Source: Heliobacteriaceae bacterium
GTDB taxonomy: Bacteria > Cyanobacteriota > Vampirovibrionia > Gastranaerophilales > Gastranaerophilaceae
Assembly (NCBI GenBank): GCA_031265495.1
Contig: JAISCP010000083.1
Coordinates: 1 to 51,733 of the forward strand
Length of the DNA stretch: 51,733 nucleotides
Reading direction: 5' to 3'
Shown: in pieces, positions 21,779 through 51,733 of the stretch
Numbering within the stretch: the stretch's first letter is position 1
Layout: every line of letters begins with the position of its first letter
The notes under the pieces: generated by a model
Databases searched by the model: none
What the model was told of the DNA's origin: nothing
Seen by the model: only the letters and a program-made list of their open reading frames with translations
Made by a program: the position numbers and the translations under genes

Positions 21779-21860
21779 AAATCAAAGCCGGAAAGCCCGT
21801 CCACAGCGGCACTTCTCTATGTAAAAAATTGGGATACCCCAAAATCTACTGAATAAATAA

Positions 21861-22261
21861 TGGAGACGGCGGGAGTCGAACCCGCGTCCAAAATGGATTA
21901 AAACATGCTTCTACGAGTGTAGATATTATTATCTCGATTAAACCCGGAAAATATCACTACCGTTGGTTTAACCAAAGTATTTTTTTCGGAAATACAAAAC
22001 CTTTAAGGGTTAACTTGATACGCATACCCTCATCAGCGCACTGCAGCTTGCATAATTGCCATGTACACCGGCAAGCAGGGCGTACACAGCGGCCGGCTGC
22101 CTAAACAGCCATTGGCACTGGGGCAGTACCCCAGAGCGCAACTTTAGGCTCTACGATGTTGTTTTCAGCATCTAATTTGTTTGCTCGTTGATAACCGTGA
22201 ACAGCTCACGGACTCGCAGCCTGTTTTCACCGAACATTCTGTCAAAAGCCAAAACGTCCCC
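21861..22261 (-). ncRNA. ssrA: tmRNA (SsrA)
   Basis: 5' GGGGACG pairs with 3' CGTCTCC plus discriminator A, including a G3:U wobble. T-arm GGGTTCGACTCCC. Internal tag ORF has its stop in a hairpin loop (GGCTG-tttagg-CAGCC). CCA is not encoded. Confidence 0.85.
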
Positions 22262-24599: not shown

Positions 24600-24760
24600 T
24601 TGGTGAATAAGTGATTAGGTGAATAGGAAATAGAGTTGAAGGGTTGAACAGTTGAAAGGTTGAATGGTTTACCCTCCCCTTGAGGGAGGGTCGAAATTCC
24701 TGCAAGGAATTTCGGGGTGGGGTATAGAGGGCTGGATGGATAGAGGTATGGCTAAATTAG
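24600..24760. repeat. Composite repeat block: stop-rich module, GTTGAANN octamer array, family-C palindrome, GATAGAGGTATGG module
   Basis: Read directly. A similar set of modules, in slightly different order, recurs at 36988-37180 and partly at 45310-45460. Confidence 0.85.
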
Positions 24761-24919: not shown

Positions 24920-25774
24920 ATGTTAAACAGTGTGCGTGAAAATGAATATAGAAATTACTATCGGACGGATTCTGCCGGTCGAACCGCAGCGAACAGAATG
25001 TTTTCTAATACTCCTTCTTATCCTGCGGCTCCTGATACCGATAAAACTGTTTTGTCCGGCTTGCTGCTTGCACTGGTTTCTCTTACATTAAACAAAGTAT
25101 CCGGCTGGTGCGGAAATAAGCTTATGGCGGGAAAAGAATTTACAAGCGCTGAAAATTCCAAAAAGATTGCCGGCGAAATGGCAAAGAATAATAAATTAAA
25201 CGTAATTACAGACTATATTGACCACGCCAACAAAGGGAAATACGGAGCTGAACTGGCTCAGACTCTTGAGCCGGTCGCCAACGGACAAAACGCATTTTTT
25301 ATGGATAAAGCCCTCAGAAATGCAAGCGGAGAAATTAAGGGCCTTGCCGTTGCCCCTAAAAGCAAACCTTCTCTTATGCTGCACGAACTCGGGCATGCCA
25401 TAAACGCATCTAAAGGCGGACTGTTGAAATTCATGCAAAAAACGCGCGGTTTTGTAAGTTACATTCCGACTGCGCTGCTGCTTTTGAACGGAGTAAAAAA
25501 CGACCCTGATAAATCCAATTTTATCGAAAGAAACGCCGGTAAACTCGGATTTTTAGCGTTTCTGCCTACGATTTTAGAGGAAGGGCTTGCGTCAATACGC
25601 GGTGTGAACGCGGCAAAAGCAGCCGAAAAAGCCGGACAGTTAGCCGGCGGTGTAAAATTAGATGTGTTAAAGAGAAACTATTTCTTTGCATGGATGACGT
25701 ATTTGCTGAGCGGCATAGGTCTTGGAATTGCTGCAAGGCAAGCATTTTTGGAGAAGAAGCACAAAAACTCTTGA
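24920..25774 (+). CDS. Putative membrane-associated zinc metallopeptidase (HExxH)
   Basis: LMLHELGHAI motif flanked by hydrophobic helices, an architecture reminiscent of YugP-type peptidases. Start at the ATG at 24920 is tentative. Confidence 0.4.
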   Translation: MLNSVRENEYRNYYRTDSAGRTAANRMFSNTPSYPAAPDTDKTVLSGLLLALVSLTLNKVSGWCGNKLMAGKEFTSAENSKKIAGEMAKNNKLNVITDYIDHANKGKYGAELAQTLEPVANGQNAFFMDKALRNASGEIKGLAVAPKSKPSLMLHELGHAINASKGGLLKFMQKTRGFVSYIPTALLLLNGVKNDPDKSNFIERNAGKLGFLAFLPTILEEGLASIRGVNAAKAAEKAGQLAGGVKLDVLKRNYFFAWMTYLLSGIGLGIAARQAFLEKKHKNS

Positions 25775-25823
25775 CGGTTTGTTTTGTTTGTCATAGACTA
25801 ATAGCATTGAAAATTTATAATAT

Positions 25824-26135
25824 CGGGATGCAGCACTCTGCCGAGTGAAACAATCCGGCGAATTGTTTCACGAGAGGTGGCAGCGCACTTTTTCAAATGG
25901 AACATTTGAAAATTTAATAGAAAATATCGGGATGTAGCACTCTGCCGAGTGAAACAATCCGGTGAATTGTTTCACGAGAGGTGGTAGCGCACCTTTTCAA
26001 ATGGAACATTTGAAAATTTAATAGAAAATATCGGGATGTAGCACTCTGCCGAGTGAAACAATCCGGCGAATTGTTTCACGAGAGGTGGTAGCGCACTTTT
26101 TCAAATGAAACATTTGAAAATTTAATAGAAAATAT
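25824..26135. repeat. Three 104-bp tandem units, each a tRNA-Pro 5' fragment with a hairpin-element insert plus a promoter-like spacer
   Basis: Units start at 25824, 25928 and 26032, and the authentic tRNA starts one period later at 26136. A unit reads CGGGATGTAGC-[ACTCTGCCGAGTGAAACAATCCGGCGAATTGTTTCACGAGAGGTG]-GTAGCGCAC-TTTTT.... Confidence 0.9.
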
Positions 26136-26209
26136 CGGGATGTAGCGCAGCTTGGTAGCGCACCTCGCTTGGGACGAGGGGGTCGCACGTTCAAATCGTG
26201 TCATCCCGA
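26136..26209 (+). tRNA. tRNA-Pro (anticodon UGG)
   Basis: Cloverleaf by hand: acceptor CGGGATG/CATCCCG, D-arm GCGC/GCGC, anticodon loop CTTGGGA, T-arm GCACG-TTCAAAT-CGTGT, discriminator A. CCA is not encoded. Confidence 0.95.
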
Positions 26210-26273
26210 TTTATTTAATCATGGTGCGACCCGGGGTCGTAATATGAAATTCGCAAGGCAAGCCTTGCTCGGG

Positions 26274-26295
26274 TCAAATCGTGTCATCCCGACCA
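26274..26295 (+). repeat. Duplicate of the tRNA-Pro 3' end (19 nt) followed by CCA
   Basis: TCAAATCGTGTCATCCCGA is identical to 26191-26209, but here CCA follows it. Confidence 0.85.
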
Positions 26296-26393
26296 CTTGA
26301 TAAATAAAGGGTTTGGGCGGTCTGCTTGACCCTTTTGTTTTGCCTTATTTTTCAACCTCTATGTAATCACCTATGCAATTGTAAGTATGTTAC

Positions 26394-27272
26394 TTAATTG
26401 TCCTGATTTTTCGTTATTTTCTTTGGCTGTTTAGCCGCTGGCAGATGGTTATCATCTGTTACAACTTTTTTGCCGGTTTTGTTTTCAAGCTGTTTTCTTG
26501 CTTGCTTTGCGATACCGCCACCTTGTTTTGCGGCTGTTGTGTTTTCCTGCATACCGACAGCCTGCTCTGTTTCCGCAATTTGCCGTGTTGAAAGTTCAGC
26601 CAATGCCGTAAAAATAAGTTCCGCTTCGCTCATATGGTCACGTAAATTTTGGGATTTCAAGCCCTTCAAATCTTTGTGTTCTTTGACGGATAAGCCCGTC
26701 CATTCCTGATGAATAATATTTGTCAAAATGGCAAACTCCTGACCTTTTTTAATATCGTGGTCTTTCCAGTAATCAGTCAACTTATTGCGGGTTTCCTGTC
26801 CTGTCAAACGCTGTTCAATCCATTTATCTGAATATCCGAGTTGTTTGTAAGTTTCTCTTGCCCTGTCAATCGCCGCTGTCGGGTCAACCATTTCCTGCAT
26901 ACGCTCATAGCCGGTTTTTGCAAGCCAAGTCTTAAACGGCTCTGCTTTTGGCGAAGGAACGGACTGCACAAGCCGCAAAATTCCTTCTGTATCAAGGACA
27001 TCAGTTAGGCGCATTTTGCCGTCAGATGCTTTCATTTTCAACTGATTAGTATTACTAACCGGTTGGCTTTTATCCAAACCGTGACAATTTGTCACGGTTT
27101 GATTTCCTTCTTCTTTAAGCCGTTGTTTTAACTTTCGCCAATACGCCGCAGGGTCAGGACTGTCCGTTAAAATCCCGACCACATCCACTACCGAAAACCA
27201 CCATTTTTCGAGTTCTCCATCCCACACGGAGCGAACCTGTCTTCCTTCAAATAATTTAACTTCATTGCCCAT
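26394..27272 (-). CDS. BRO-N domain protein (phage antirepressor-like N-terminus)
   Basis: VRSVWDGELEKWWFSVVDVVGILTDS...KMRLTDVLDTEGILRLVQSVPSPKAEPFKTWLAKTGYERM resembles BRO-N family proteins from memory. Confidence 0.55.
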   Translation of the reverse strand: MGNEVKLFEGRQVRSVWDGELEKWWFSVVDVVGILTDSPDPAAYWRKLKQRLKEEGNQTVTNCHGLDKSQPVSNTNQLKMKASDGKMRLTDVLDTEGILRLVQSVPSPKAEPFKTWLAKTGYERMQEMVDPTAAIDRARETYKQLGYSDKWIEQRLTGQETRNKLTDYWKDHDIKKGQEFAILTNIIHQEWTGLSVKEHKDLKGLKSQNLRDHMSEAELIFTALAELSTRQIAETEQAVGMQENTTAAKQGGGIAKQARKQLENKTGKKVVTDDNHLPAAKQPKKITKNQDN

Positions 27273-36715: not shown

Positions 36716-36990
36716 TGACAACATTGGAATATAAAGGCTATGTAACGGAAGGTGTGGCAAAAGGCAAATTCGACTACTACGTGTACACGGAACTATGTAA
36801 GGGCTGCGGGCTTTGCATAGCGAAGTGTCCGATTAACGCAAAGGGTGAAAATTGTTTACACTGGTCAAAAGAGGTAGGGCTTTACCAGACTCCTGCGGTT
36901 GAACCCGACCCATCGCTTTGTATAGGCTGCGGAACCTGTGCATTGGTCTGCCCTGACAGCGCAATAAGAATTGAGAAAAAGGCCTTGTAG
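36715..36990 (+). CDS. 4Fe-4S ferredoxin-type delta subunit
   Basis: Two clusters, CKGCGLCIAKCP and CIGCGTCALVCP. The ATG overlaps the gamma-subunit stop. Confidence 0.85.
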   Translation: MTTLEYKGYVTEGVAKGKFDYYVYTELCKGCGLCIAKCPINAKGENCLHWSKEVGLYQTPAVEPDPSLCIGCGTCALVCPDSAIRIEKKAL

Positions 36991-37047
36991 AATTAGTGAA
37001 TAGGAAATTAAGAGGTATGGCTTTTTAGTTAGTTGAAAGGTTAAATT

Positions 37048-37153
37048 ACCCTCCCCTTGAGACTCTGCCGAGCGAAACGATTAATTATCGTTTCGTGAGA
37101 GGTTAGGTCGAAATTCCTTACAGGAATTTCGGGGTGGGGTATAGAGGGCTGGA
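37048..37153. repeat. Family-C palindrome interrupted by the hairpin element
   Basis: ACCCTCCCCTTGAG-[44-nt insert]-GGTCGAAATTCC...GGGGTGGGGTATAGAGGGCTGGA. Compare the uninterrupted copy at 24671-24736. Confidence 0.85.
37062..37105. mobile_element. ~44-nt palindromic hairpin element (ACTCTGCCGAGCGAAACGAT-taat-TATCGTTTCGTGAGAGG)
   Basis: The same element occurs inside the three tRNA-Pro fragments (25835-25879 and +104, +208). An inverted copy is inserted in a family-A element at 51705-51733. Confidence 0.75.
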
Positions 37154-37540
37154 GGGATAGAGGTATGGGAAAAAAAACATCACCGCCGCGTCACTCTCTG
37201 AACAACCTCCCTGTTATGCTGAAATAGCGGATTGTTGGCTCTCGCCCTGCGGGAGAGAGTACAAACACTTAGCAAAACCGCAGGTTGAGCTTAGTGTTTG
37301 GAGTGAGAGGGCAGGCTGCATGGCAAACAAAGCAAGCTATTCCCTAGTTTGACGGTGCCCATGGCATGTGTTCCGGATTTATTCGGTTTTGCGCCCCCTC
37401 ACCTGAATTTCTAAACTCACACGTTCGTTAAGAAATTCTTCCTCTCCCGTATGGAGAGGAACAGGCTGAGCCTGCACCCATTACATCAGGTTCTACCCCA
37501 AATTTATTCAACCTTTCAACTATTTAACCCTTCAACTAAT

Positions 37541-45239: not shown

Positions 45240-45656
45240 TTTTCAATCTCCTTCTTACATTTAATCTACACGACCAGATTACAACAAACACAAAAGTAAG
45301 ACAAGAGGGAATTAAGAGGTATGGAGGGCCGGAGGGATAGAGGTATGGCTTTTTAGTTGAAGGGTTAAATAGTTGAAAGGTTGAAAGGCTGAGCTACCCT
45401 CCCCTTGAGGGAGGGTCGAAATTTGCTTTGGCAAATTTCGGGGTGGGGTATAAAAGGCTGAAGGTATGGCTGAGCCTGCCCTTCTCCCAGAGGGAGAAGG
45501 TGCCCGCGGATGAGGGTTTTATTAATTAAGTGAATAGGAAAGAGGGAACATGAAAGAGTCCCGCCCTGTCATGCTGAACAACCACCCAGTCACCCTGAAC
45601 TTGATTCAGGGTCTATCAGTTTAATTGAAATTGATAGATTCCGGGTCAAGCCCGGA

Positions 45657-51616: not shown

Positions 51617-51704
51617 CATTGTTAACTTTGCATTGTTTCGTCATTGCGAGGAGGGCGTAAGCCCGACGCGGCAATCCAGTAAATTCAACGGTTTTGACTG
51701 GATT
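51617..51704. repeat. Family-A element, inverted copy, interrupted at its end by the hairpin element (51705-51733, truncated by the window edge)
   Basis: Reverse complement aligns with 20-100 and 7926-8010. The following TTCCTCTCACAAAACGATAATTAATCGTT is the inverted hairpin element. Confidence 0.85.
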
Positions 51705-51733
51705 TTCCTCTCACAAAACGATAATTAATCGTT

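What the first reader, a model, noticed from the sequence alone, without database searches (positions are those of the whole stretch)
25824..26135. Three 104-bp tandem units upstream of tRNA-Pro, each a promoter-like spacer plus a tRNA-Pro 5' fragment whose D-loop is replaced by a hairpin element
Units begin at 25824, 25928 and 26032, and the real tRNA-Pro begins exactly one period later at 26136. Each unit starts with the tRNA 5' acceptor strand and D-stem start (CGGGATGTAGC). A 45-nt palindromic insert follows, then GTAGCGCAC (the D-stem 3' side) and TTTTT. Next comes the spacer TTCAAATGGAACATTTGAAAATTTAATAGAAAATAT, which also precedes the authentic tRNA. This spacer contains a plausible TTCAAA-N17-TAATAG promoter. 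The locus may therefore be a tandem array of promoter plus ~70-nt tRNA-derived hairpin RNAs ending in a U-run, capped by the functional tRNA. The array could encode tRNA-fragment-like sRNAs. It could equally be a scar of repeated recombination at a tRNA integration site, or simply amplify tRNA-Pro promoter dosage.
Basis: seen in the sequence. Interest (0 to 1): 0.62.

Follow-up and report, generated by a model that had tools for sequence, protein, structure and literature searches.

The report
tRNA-Pro leader repeats carrying mini-element
Three head-to-tail copies of [quoted passage not shown] sit in front of the real proline tRNA gene of an uncultured gut relative of cyanobacteria. The hairpin element belongs to a previously uncatalogued family that nests inside copies of tRNA gene ends, on both sides of many tRNA genes, across this whole bacterial order.

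Summary
Window 25824-26135 holds three 104-bp units that differ at only 3-4 positions, followed in register by tRNA-Pro(UGG) at 26136-26209.

Each unit has five parts:
- tRNA-Pro nt 1-11;
- a 43-nt module M (ACTCTGCCGA, a 10-bp hairpin, GAGAGG);
- tRNA-Pro nt 17a-27;
- a foldback hairpin;
- the native tRNA leader.

The units are not tRNAs. They are not self-contained promoter/terminator cassettes either. The only consensus promoter lies upstream of unit 1, so the array is most likely a roughly 330-nt 5' leader of pre-tRNA-Pro.

The same design recurs in front of tRNA-Pro in 36 of 106 Gastranaerophilales loci, with 1-4 copies. Both hairpins show strong covariation.

M is not specific to tRNA-Pro. 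In an M-centred sample of 139 copies, 44% lie next to tRNA genes of about 15 isotypes. Each is embedded in a copy of that tRNA's outermost 11-20 nt. Upstream copies are sense and sit in the D-loop. Downstream copies are antisense and sit in the T-loop. Nearly all point toward the gene.

M also nests in whalefall-1-type repeats, and the window holds an empty site for comparison.

My best reading is a tandemly amplified composite repeat carrying a REP/SDR-like nested mini-element. Its function is unproven. No such element family was found in Rfam or the searched literature.

The parts
25771..25799 (+). Sigma-70-type promoter TTGACG-17 nt-TAGACT, upstream of the whole array
   Evidence: Equivalent TTGAC-N17-TAnAAT promoters precede the first unit, or the tRNA itself, in all related loci.
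25800..25823 (+). Native leader L0 (AATAGCATTGAAAATTTATAATAT), homologous to the 3' part of each spacer
   Evidence: The leader motif TTGAMAAYTDAATAT lies 0-10 nt before many tRNA genes in this order.
25824..25927 (+). Unit 1. a = 25824-25834 (tRNA nt 1-11, with T8>C); M = 25835-25877; c = 25878-25888 (TGGCAGCGCAC); foldback hairpin plus leader = 25889-25927.
25928..26031 (+). Unit 2. a = 25928-25938; M = 25939-25981; c = 25982-25992; hairpin plus leader = 25993-26031.
26032..26135 (+). Unit 3. a = 26032-26042; M = 26043-26085; c = 26086-26096; hairpin plus leader = 26097-26135.
26136..26209 (+). Functional tRNA-Pro(UGG), with no encoded CCA
   Evidence: ARAGORN; Rfam RF00005, 63.6 bits
26210..26295 (+). 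3' pseudo-unit: two small hairpins (one is an inverted copy of the tRNA segment GGGTCGC), then a second copy of the last 20 nt of tRNA-Pro, this time followed by CCA and the terminator
   Evidence: Relatives L004 and L006 have CCA plus terminator directly after the tRNA.
37062..37104 (+). Another copy of module M (ACTCTGCCGA-GCGAAACGAT/TAATT/ATCGTTTCGT-GAGAGG), nested in a whalefall-1-type ('family C') repeat
   Evidence: The uninterrupted copy at about 24670-24750 shows the empty site.
51700..51733 (-). Reverse-oriented copy of M (…AACGATTAATTATCGTTTTGTGAGAGG), cut off by the window end

Best explanation
The array is a tandem amplification of a composite repeat. It is not a set of genes. One unit consists of:
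- the native tRNA-Pro leader, whose start is folded back into a 10-bp hairpin by an inverted copy of itself;
- a partial copy of the tRNA-Pro gene end (nt 1-27);
- a 43-nt structured mini-element M that replaces D-loop nt 12-17 of that partial copy.

M (ACUCUGCCGA, variable 9-12-bp hairpin, GAGAGG) is a dispersed, structure-conserved element family seen here only in Gastranaerophilales/Melainabacteria-type assemblies. It behaves like REP or cyanobacterial SDR mini-elements. It nests in loops of pre-existing hairpins, with one empty and one filled site in this window. It lands preferentially in partial copies of tRNA gene ends.

Shown:
- the anatomy;
- conservation with covariation;
- dispersal of M;
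- the tRNA-end preference and its mirror symmetry;
- a single upstream promoter;
- copy-number variation and decay among relatives.

Inferred:
- The array plus tRNA is transcribed from the promoter at 25771-25799 as one precursor with a roughly 330-nt leader.
- RNase P releases the tRNA at 26135/26136.
- Unit number changes by unequal recombination between units.
- The stable hairpins (M and the foldback) keep the pseudo-acceptor and D-arm pieces from mispairing with the real tRNA, so these copies are the ones tolerated.
- The array has no dedicated function beyond possible effects on leader stability or processing.
For: Structure
- The repeat and the tRNA are confirmed.
- The only consensus promoter is upstream of unit 1, and no + strand terminator is found.

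Relatives
- A 35-nt piece of the insert is exact in 7 other species. In every case it lies directly upstream of a tRNA-Pro (UGG or CGG), in 1-4 units.
- Broader scans give about 50 type-A units, plus types B and C, before tRNA-Pro UGG, CGG and GGG.
- 36 of 106 tRNA-Pro(UGG) loci carry at least one unit. Syntenic loci carry 3, 1 or 0 units, or decayed remnants.

Covariation
- On 20 diverse units, 94% of cells pair. Ten of 16 pairs show double changes in 51 cells. 0 of 500 shuffles reach this, and slid controls are far lower.
- 58 distinct P2 sequences were found, and nearly all form clean 9-12-bp stems.

M is dispersed and nested
- The filled site at 37047-37110 can be compared with the empty site at 24670. 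A reverse copy lies at the window end.
- The M-centred scan found 139 copies in 114 loci. 40 lie sense-upstream of tRNAs of 9 amino-acid isotypes. In 21 of 24 antisense M-tRNA pairings M lies downstream and points at the tRNA. About 15 isotypes are represented in all.
- In 29 of 45 sense M-tRNA pairings the left flank matches the neighbouring tRNA's 5' end exactly over at least 10 nt. In most antisense cases it matches 11-12 nt of the reverse complement of the tRNA's 3' end.
- 44% of copies fall in zones that cover 3.9% of strand positions.
- The same design is seen before tRNA-Leu, tRNA-Gly and tRNA-Lys.

Leader: the motif is native and transcribed in unit-less loci.

Neighbours: no associated recombinase gene was found.

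RNA libraries: unit-bearing contigs are present, at depth equal to or above the tRNA contig.
Against: - No direct transcript ends are available. The RNA evidence is contigs only, from relatives, without strand information, and DNA carry-over cannot be excluded.
- M's invariant loop sequences, and the exact identity of the 27-nt hairpin across species, indicate purifying selection. That fits a functional RNA or protein-binding site at least as well as a selfish element.
- No transposase was identified.
- The recurrence of the same breakpoints in many isotypes (M after nt 11 or 18; the partial copy ending near nt 27; the mirror image at the 3' end) is not explained by random duplication followed by random insertion.
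- In some sister lineages the spacer does carry a good extended -10 (TGnTAnAAT) 2-13 nt before the next unit, so internal promoters may exist there.
Confidence: 0.55

Rival explanations
1. The units are functional RNA modules. Each leader unit, or an RNA processed from it, uses its tRNA-identical 5' strand and G18G19/D-arm piece together with the conserved M hairpin. It would either pair with the 3' half of the cognate pre-tRNA, forming a chimeric 'top half' that RNase P cuts at unit boundaries to release ~104-nt RNAs, or act as a tRNA-half mimic or protein-binding platform that tunes tRNA maturation. M would then be a protein-binding or tertiary-contact motif reused in leaders, trailers and 3' UTRs.
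For: - M's internal-loop sequences are invariant, while both helices covary.
- GNRA tetraloops cap the second hairpin in most lineages.
- In types B and C, an inverted copy c' pairs with the tRNA-derived c, and it covaries with the host tRNA: GGTAGC/GCTACC for Pro and GTAGACG/CGTCTA for Leu.
- The P1 helix differs between type A and type B by a compensatory change, CUCU/AGAG versus CUCC/GGAG.
- The A-rich 5' strand and U-rich 3' strand polarity of P2 is kept: 313 A-U pairs against 85 U-A pairs.
- Units are present in RNA-seq contigs.
Against: - The tRNA-derived 5' strand is less conserved than M. Several tRNA-proximal units have 1-3 mismatches or a deletion in nt 1-7 (L096, L176, L171, L204, L068).
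- Units are absent from about two thirds of tRNA-Pro(UGG) loci and decay in syntenic relatives.
- Downstream copies carry M antisense to the tRNA, so one RNA-level role cannot hold for both sides.
- G-U pairs in P2 are very rare, 8 of 568.
- M also sits in non-tRNA repeats.
Confidence: 0.25
2. The array multiplies the tRNA-Pro promoter. Each spacer would carry its own promoter, so three extra units raise tRNA-Pro transcription.
For: - Some sister lineages have extended -10 boxes (TGGTACAAT, TGCTATAAT, TGATAAAAT) in the spacer, 2-13 nt before the next unit or tRNA.
- Highly expressed stable-RNA operons are known to use tandem promoters (general knowledge).
Against: - In this window no spacer passes a lenient sigma-70 scan.
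- The spacer motif lies downstream of the real promoter in unit-less loci, so it is leader and not promoter.
- This reading does not explain the conservation of M, or M's presence downstream of tRNAs and elsewhere.
Confidence: 0.1
3. The units are scars of repeated integration and excision of integrase-borne elements at tRNA-Pro, leaving displaced 5' fragments.
For: - tRNA genes are classical integration sites.
- The 3' end of this same tRNA is duplicated 64 nt downstream, with the original CCA and terminator displaced, and a BRO-N gene lies next door.
Against: - The units are homogeneous, include the native leader and have no element remnants.
- No integrase is enriched near unit-bearing loci.
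- The same design occurs at about 15 isotypes and inside non-tRNA repeats.
Confidence: 0.05
4. The three copies are an assembly artefact, an expanded or collapsed repeat.
For: Short-read assemblies often mis-size tandem repeats. Logan contigs of the source-like run break at the array.
Against: - The depth ratio of about 2.3-2.7 fits roughly three copies.
- The three units differ at specific positions.
- Arrays of 2-4 units occur in independent assemblies.
Confidence: 0.05

Closest known systems
E. coli tyrT 178-bp repeats / RtT RNA (RF00391), 'tRNA-linked repeats' (from my own knowledge; the terms occur in PMC8144298 and PMC3318445)
   Same: - Tandem repeat units lie next to a tRNA gene, and each contains a fragment of that tRNA's end.
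- They are co-transcribed with the tRNA.
- Copy number is variable.
   Different: - The E. coli repeats lie downstream and carry the 3' 19 nt. Here the units lie upstream and carry the 5' 11 plus 10 nt.
- Here the fragment is interrupted by a dispersed hairpin element.
- There is no Rfam match.
Small dispersed repeats (SDR) of heterocystous cyanobacteria (Elhai et al. 2008, Genome Res 18:1484; cited in PMC3116915; the paper itself was not held)
   Same: - They are very small elements that nest inside other repeats and hairpins, extending them.
- Empty and filled sites are seen.
- No adjacent transposase is present.
- The host lineages are related (Cyanobacteriota).
   Different: - M is longer (43 nt) and has invariant flanking motifs.
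- M shows a marked, mirror-symmetric preference for copies of tRNA gene ends.
- No sequence relationship was tested.
REP / BIME / REPIN elements and their RAYT transposases (PMC3116915, PMC3733652)
   Same: - They are dispersed extragenic palindromes with a conserved tag next to a variable, covarying stem.
- They show orientation bias.
- They build mosaic composite repeats.
   Different: - No GTAG or CGTC tag lies at a fixed position.
- No RAYT gene was identified (not testable here).
- REPs are not known to sit inside tRNA-end copies.
Displaced tRNA gene fragments at integration sites of islands and prophages (background in PMC9897764)
   Same: Partial tRNA gene copies lie next to an intact tRNA gene.
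   Different: - No integrase or island is present.
- The fragments are short, homogeneous and tandem, and they carry a conserved nested hairpin.
Whalefall-1 RNA motif (RF01762; Weinberg et al. 2010, PMC2864571)
   Same: It is the host repeat ('family C') into which M is nested at 37047-37160. One copy at 45394-45450 reaches the Rfam gathering score.
   Different: It is a different element. It is relevant only as a second landing site, which shows that M is an insertion.

Membership tests
tRNA (RF00005) | A cloverleaf that scores with tRNA models | tested here: not met
   ARAGORN and Rfam find only 26136-26209. No unit matches, even at E<=10.
Independent promoter-sRNA-terminator cassette | A sigma-70 promoter in each spacer | tested here: not met
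   The scan finds promoters only at 25771-25821, upstream of unit 1. The spacer motif is transcribed leader in unit-less relatives.
Independent promoter-sRNA-terminator cassette | An intrinsic terminator (GC-rich stem followed by a U-run) at the unit end | tested here: not met
   No + strand terminator-like site lies in 25600-26450. The TTTTT run is the 5' strand of the foldback hairpin.
Structured RNA or ssDNA element (generic) | Helices kept by compensatory changes across species | tested here: met
   Ten of 16 pairs show double changes, in 51 cells. 0 of 500 shuffles reach this, and slid controls are much lower. 58 distinct P2 sequences were found.
REP/REPIN-type dispersed palindromic element | Many dispersed copies with a conserved tag and a variable palindrome | tested here: met
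   Five copies lie in this 51.7-kb window. 139 copies were found in 114 loci of related assemblies, 78 of them away from tRNAs.
REP/REPIN-type dispersed palindromic element | A cognate RAYT (Y1 transposase) gene in the genome | not testable with these tools
No candidate was enriched within 4 kb of units.
SDR-like nested mini-insertion | Filled and empty versions of the same host repeat | tested here: met
   The copy at 37047 reads ...CCCCTTGAG-[M]-GGTCGAAATTCC. The copy at 24670 reads ...CCCCTTGAG-GGAG-GGTCGAAATTCC.
Integrase att scar at a tRNA gene | An integrase or element remnant between the direct repeats of the tRNA part | tested here: not met
   The units contain only leader, tRNA pieces and M. 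No integrase cluster is enriched.
RtT / tRNA-linked repeats (RF00391) | A sequence/structure match to the family, with a 3'-end fragment located downstream | tested here: not met
   No Rfam match. The fragment is the 5' end and the location is upstream.

The most novel reading that the evidence does not exclude
M-units may be a new kind of tRNA-gene-end-specific mini-element or RNA module. The design would be '[outermost 11-20 nt of a tRNA gene end]-M-[rest of the first arm]-foldback-spacer'. It is generated at either end of tRNA genes of about 15 isotypes, nearly always pointing inward, and always leaves an intact tRNA.

Two forms are possible:
- a self-healing insertion/duplication mechanism acting on the D-loop (between G18 and G19) and the T-loop of tRNA DNA;
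- a family of cognate-matched tRNA-half mimics made by RNase P from chimeric pairing with the tRNA 3' half.
Probability: 0.2. Interest if true: 0.8.

Novelty: new variant of a known kind. Interest (0 to 1): 0.6.

Why it matters
tRNA genes are known as landing sites for large integrative elements. A tiny, structure-conserved element that lives inside copies of tRNA gene ends, on both sides of many tRNA genes, across a whole bacterial order, has not turned up in Rfam or in the literature I could search.

If it is mobile, it points to a mechanism that recognises tRNA-shaped DNA or RNA loops and leaves the essential gene intact.

If it is an RNA module, it adds hundreds of nucleotides of conserved structure to pre-tRNA leaders and could be a new layer of control over tRNA maturation.

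There is also a practical consequence. These units will be mis-called as tRNA pseudogenes or assembly errors in Melainabacteria MAGs, and their variable copy number could serve as a strain marker.

Tried and rejected
- **Rfam.** The whole window at gathering score, and 25700-26400 and 36950-37350 at E<=10, gave no family for the units or for M.
- **Hammerhead-like core.** CUGCCGA...GAG resembles CUGANGA...GAA, but it differs at the invariant A6 and A14 and no ribozyme model matched. Rejected.
- **K-turn reading of the GCCGA/GA loop.** The topology fits only with a 4-nt bulge, and the feature is absent from type B. Left open.
- **Small ORF.** GAGAGG could serve as a Shine-Dalgarno sequence before ATGGAACATTTGAAAATTTAA (6 codons). 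The ATG is followed by a stop codon in relatives. Rejected.
- **Acceptor-like pairing of CGGGAUGU with ACAAUCCG** in the hairpin loop (the MFE fold). It is possible only in the CCNGNGA-loop subfamily and is not conserved in the UAAGU-loop subfamilies. Rejected as a general feature.
- **Minus-strand function.** Fold energies of P2 do not separate the strands: mean -8.9 versus -9.0 kcal/mol. Uninformative.
- **Associated gene.** ORF clustering over 195 loci found nothing enriched.
- **Phage origin.** Only 4 viral-contig hits were found, one of them a tRNA-Lys unit.
- **Literature.** Six full-text searches found no description.

Full report
**1. Observation**

Tandem Repeats Finder reports one array at 25819-26146: period 104, 3.2 copies, 96% matches, score 621. 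Read directly, the units start at 25824, 25928 and 26032, and the real tRNA-Pro(UGG) starts one period later at 26136. ARAGORN and Rfam recognise only 26136-26209 as a tRNA (63.6 bits). Nothing in 25700-26400 matches any other Rfam family, even at E<=10.

Each unit has this layout:
- nt 1-11, CGGGATGTAGC, equal to tRNA nt 1-11;
- nt 12-54, a 43-nt insert: ACTCTGCCGA, then GTGAAACAAT/CCGGYGA/ATTGTTTCAC, then GAGAGG;
- nt 55-65, TGGTAGCGCAC, equal to tRNA nt 17a-27;
- a second perfect 10-bp hairpin, TTTTCAAATG-GAA-CATTTGAAAA;
- an AT-rich tail.

The units differ from one another at 3-4 positions. One unit folds at -33.1 kcal/mol (z = -4.8).

In a termite-gut metagenome run that holds the window, the collapsed unit contig has depth 21.3 against 8.0 and 9.3 for the flanks. 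That fits roughly three copies and argues against an assembly artefact.

**2. Promoter, leader and terminator**

A lenient sigma-70 scan finds TTGACG-17-TAGACT at 25771-25799, plus an overlapping hit, upstream of unit 1. It finds nothing in the internal spacers and no terminator-like site on the + strand.

In 106 related tRNA-Pro(UGG) loci a strong TTGAC-N17-TAnAAT promoter lies 30-150 nt upstream. The motif TTGAMAAYTDAATAT sits 0-10 nt before the mature 5' end, also in loci without any unit. It also precedes tRNA-Leu, tRNA-Gly and tRNA-Tyr genes.

So the 3' part of the spacer is the native transcribed leader. The stretch before unit 1 (GCATTGAAAATTTATAATAT) is homologous to it. The 5' strand of the second hairpin is an inverted copy of the start of that leader.

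I infer one precursor with a leader of about 330 nt, which RNase P removes.

**3. Relatives**

A 35-nt piece of the insert is exact in seven other species genomes, all Gastranaerophilales-type MAGs. In every case it lies directly upstream of a tRNA-Pro (UGG or CGG), in 1-4 units. A structure-agnostic pattern (GGTAGCG, 30-60 nt, tRNA-Pro 5' end) and a tRNA-centred scan added about 50 more units.

Three architectures share the module:
- Type A is the one in this window.
- Type B has AAGGACUCC-hairpin-GGAGG, and then GGUAGC paired with a downstream inverted copy GCUACC.
- Type C has tRNA nt 1-18, then M inserted cleanly between G18 and G19, then c paired with its inverted copy.

36 of 106 tRNA-Pro(UGG) loci carry at least one unit. 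The window is the only one in that set with three. Arrays of 3-4 occur before tRNA-Pro(CGG) in L002, L007 and L089.

Loci syntenic with the window share the upstream HELGH membrane-protein gene. They hold 3, 1 or 0 units, or decayed remnants (L217, L210). Distal units of arrays are often degenerate (L001, L002, L007).

**4. Structure**

On 20 diverse type-A units the basal six pairs of the insert hairpin (P2) and the second hairpin covary. 94% of cells pair, 10 of 16 pairs show double changes (51 cells), 0 of 500 shuffles reach this, and slid controls are far lower. I found 58 distinct P2 sequences; nearly all form clean 9-12-bp stems.

The flanking ACUCUGCCGA and GAGAGG are essentially invariant. 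P1 (CUCU/AGAG) becomes CUCC/GGAG in type B. The second hairpin is capped by GNRA loops in most lineages.

G-U pairs are rare (8 of 568), and fold energies do not separate the strands. The A-rich 5' strand and U-rich 3' strand polarity is kept.

**5. The insert is a dispersed element**

The same module (M) occurs in the window at 37062-37104, inside a 'family C' repeat. That repeat family includes the copy at 45394-45450, which reaches the gathering score of Rfam whalefall-1. The uninterrupted family-C copy at about 24670 shows the empty site...CCCCTTGAG-GGAG-GGTCGAAATTCC versus ...CCCCTTGAG-[M]-GGTCGAAATTCC. This tests and confirms the lead from e1-4267258. A reverse copy of M is cut by the window end.

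All are Melainabacteria-type assemblies, some with evidently mis-binned labels. Of 139 copies in the 114 new loci:
- 40 lie sense-upstream of a tRNA (Val, Lys, Met, four Leu anticodons, Thr, Ile, Pro, Ala, Arg);
- in 21 of 24 antisense M-tRNA pairings M lies just downstream of the tRNA and points toward it (Leu-caa, Arg, Glu, Phe, Met, Gln, Lys);
- 78 have no tRNA within 700 nt, and many of these sit in whalefall-1-like or other conserved hairpin contexts.

tRNA-adjacent zones make up 3.9% of strand positions but hold 44% of copies. Tandem copies are not independent, so the binomial P value overstates the case.

In 29 of 45 sense M-tRNA pairings the left flank of M equals at least 10 nt of the neighbouring tRNA's 5' end (typically its first 11-12 or 17-20 nt). 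In most antisense cases the left flank matches 11-12 nt of the reverse complement of the tRNA's 3' end, and the right flank is the reverse complement of the T-loop (GAACC). The design is therefore mirror-symmetric about the tRNA gene.

The same unit design was read directly before:
- tRNA-Leu in a complete chromosome (L044);
- tRNA-Leu as type B (L205);
- tRNA-Gly (L138);
- tRNA-Lys on a viral contig (L236).

Analogous pseudo-tRNA leader arrays with other hairpins exist in Bacteroidota, before both tRNA-Pro and tRNA-Lys in one genome and with up to about 15 units. A single 81-nt unit occurs in Microbacteriaceae.

**6. Other evidence**

ORF clustering over 195 loci found no gene enriched beside unit-bearing loci.

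RNA-seq-labelled runs from chicken gut and wastewater contain contigs of a unit. One 132-nt unitig has the same leader at both ends, giving a period of about 102. Its depth is 9.4 against 6.6 for the tRNA contig, with no coverage of the flanks of the closest locus. This is weak support for transcription. It comes from contigs only, from relatives, and carries no strand information.

Six literature searches found no description.

I could therefore do no genome-wide census and no search for a transposase.

**7. Interpretation**

Best supported (0.55): the array is a tandemly amplified composite repeat. It combines the native leader, a partial copy of the tRNA gene end and a nested REP/SDR-like mini-element. 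It is transcribed as part of a long pre-tRNA leader, and its copy number changes by unequal recombination.

The conservation of M may reflect the requirements of its own propagation, a role as an RNA hairpin (stabiliser, processing site or insulator against mispairing), or both.

The main rival (0.25) is that the units are functional, cognate-matched tRNA-half mimics. Evidence against this rival:
- The tRNA-derived flanks drift more than M does.
- Units are often absent.
- Downstream copies are antisense.

Promoter multiplication (0.10), integrase scars (0.05) and an assembly artefact (0.05) are poorly supported for this window.

What remains unexplained is the regularity of the design: the same insertion points, the same extent of the partial copy, the foldback junctions and the mirror symmetry, across about 15 isotypes. 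This keeps open a more novel reading, a mechanism specific to tRNA gene ends (0.2).

**8. Verdict**

The element family appears uncatalogued. I rate it a new variant of known kinds (tRNA-linked repeats combined with nested mini-elements), with interest 0.6.

Noticed in passing
window 26210-26295: The last 20 nt of tRNA-Pro recur 64 nt downstream, this time followed by CCA and the terminator. Between the copies lies a hairpin made by an inverted copy of the tRNA segment GGGTCGC. Relatives have CCA plus terminator directly after the tRNA. This looks like the 3'-side counterpart of the 5' units, but without M.
   Followed up: partly
window 25831 and 25881 (unit 1, positions 8 and 58): Unit 1 carries the same T>C change in both GTAGC direct repeats that flank M (ATGCAGC ... 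GGCAGC). Similar single changes occur in L003, L002 and L022. I do not know whether this is coincidence, conversion between the flanks, or a shared constraint.
   Followed up: no
window 106(-), 8018(-), 24670(+), 37047(+), 45395(+): Five copies of a CCCTCCCC...GGGGTGGGG hairpin repeat ('family C') lie in the window. The copy at 45394-45450 reaches the gathering score of Rfam whalefall-1 (RF01762), a motif described only from a whale-fall metagenome. Here it behaves as a dispersed gene-end repeat of a Gastranaerophilales genome.
   Followed up: partly
L011 (Bacteroidales MAG), L059 (Dyadobacter), L090, L035, L097: Bacteroidota have analogous arrays of 2 to about 15 pseudo-tRNA units upstream of tRNA-Pro. 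In L011 they also lie upstream of tRNA-Lys. In these units the anticodon arm is replaced by a shared hairpin, TCCCGNN-tetraloop-NNCGGGA.
   Followed up: partly
L037, L045, L049, L084, L093, L109, L111, L027 (Microbacteriaceae and other Actinomycetota): One conserved 80-83-nt unit, made of tRNA-Pro nt 1-45 plus a divergent tail, precedes tRNA-Pro(GGG-type) across several genera.
   Followed up: no
tRNA-Pro 26142-26149 and 26154-26161: tRNA-Pro contains a natural 8-nt direct repeat, GTAGCGCA (nt 7-14 and 19-26). M sits exactly between the two copies in type-A units.
   Followed up: no
L002 (oriented) units 2 and 4: Two type-B units differ only by inversion of the hairpin loop (CGAT-ACTAA-ATCG versus CGAT-TTAGT-ATCG). 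This is the footprint of a DNA-level flip of a palindrome loop.
   Followed up: no
window 21858-22261 (-): The tmRNA has an unusual predicted tag, AENNIVEPKVALWGTAPVPMAV, lacking the usual (L/V)AA end.
   Followed up: no
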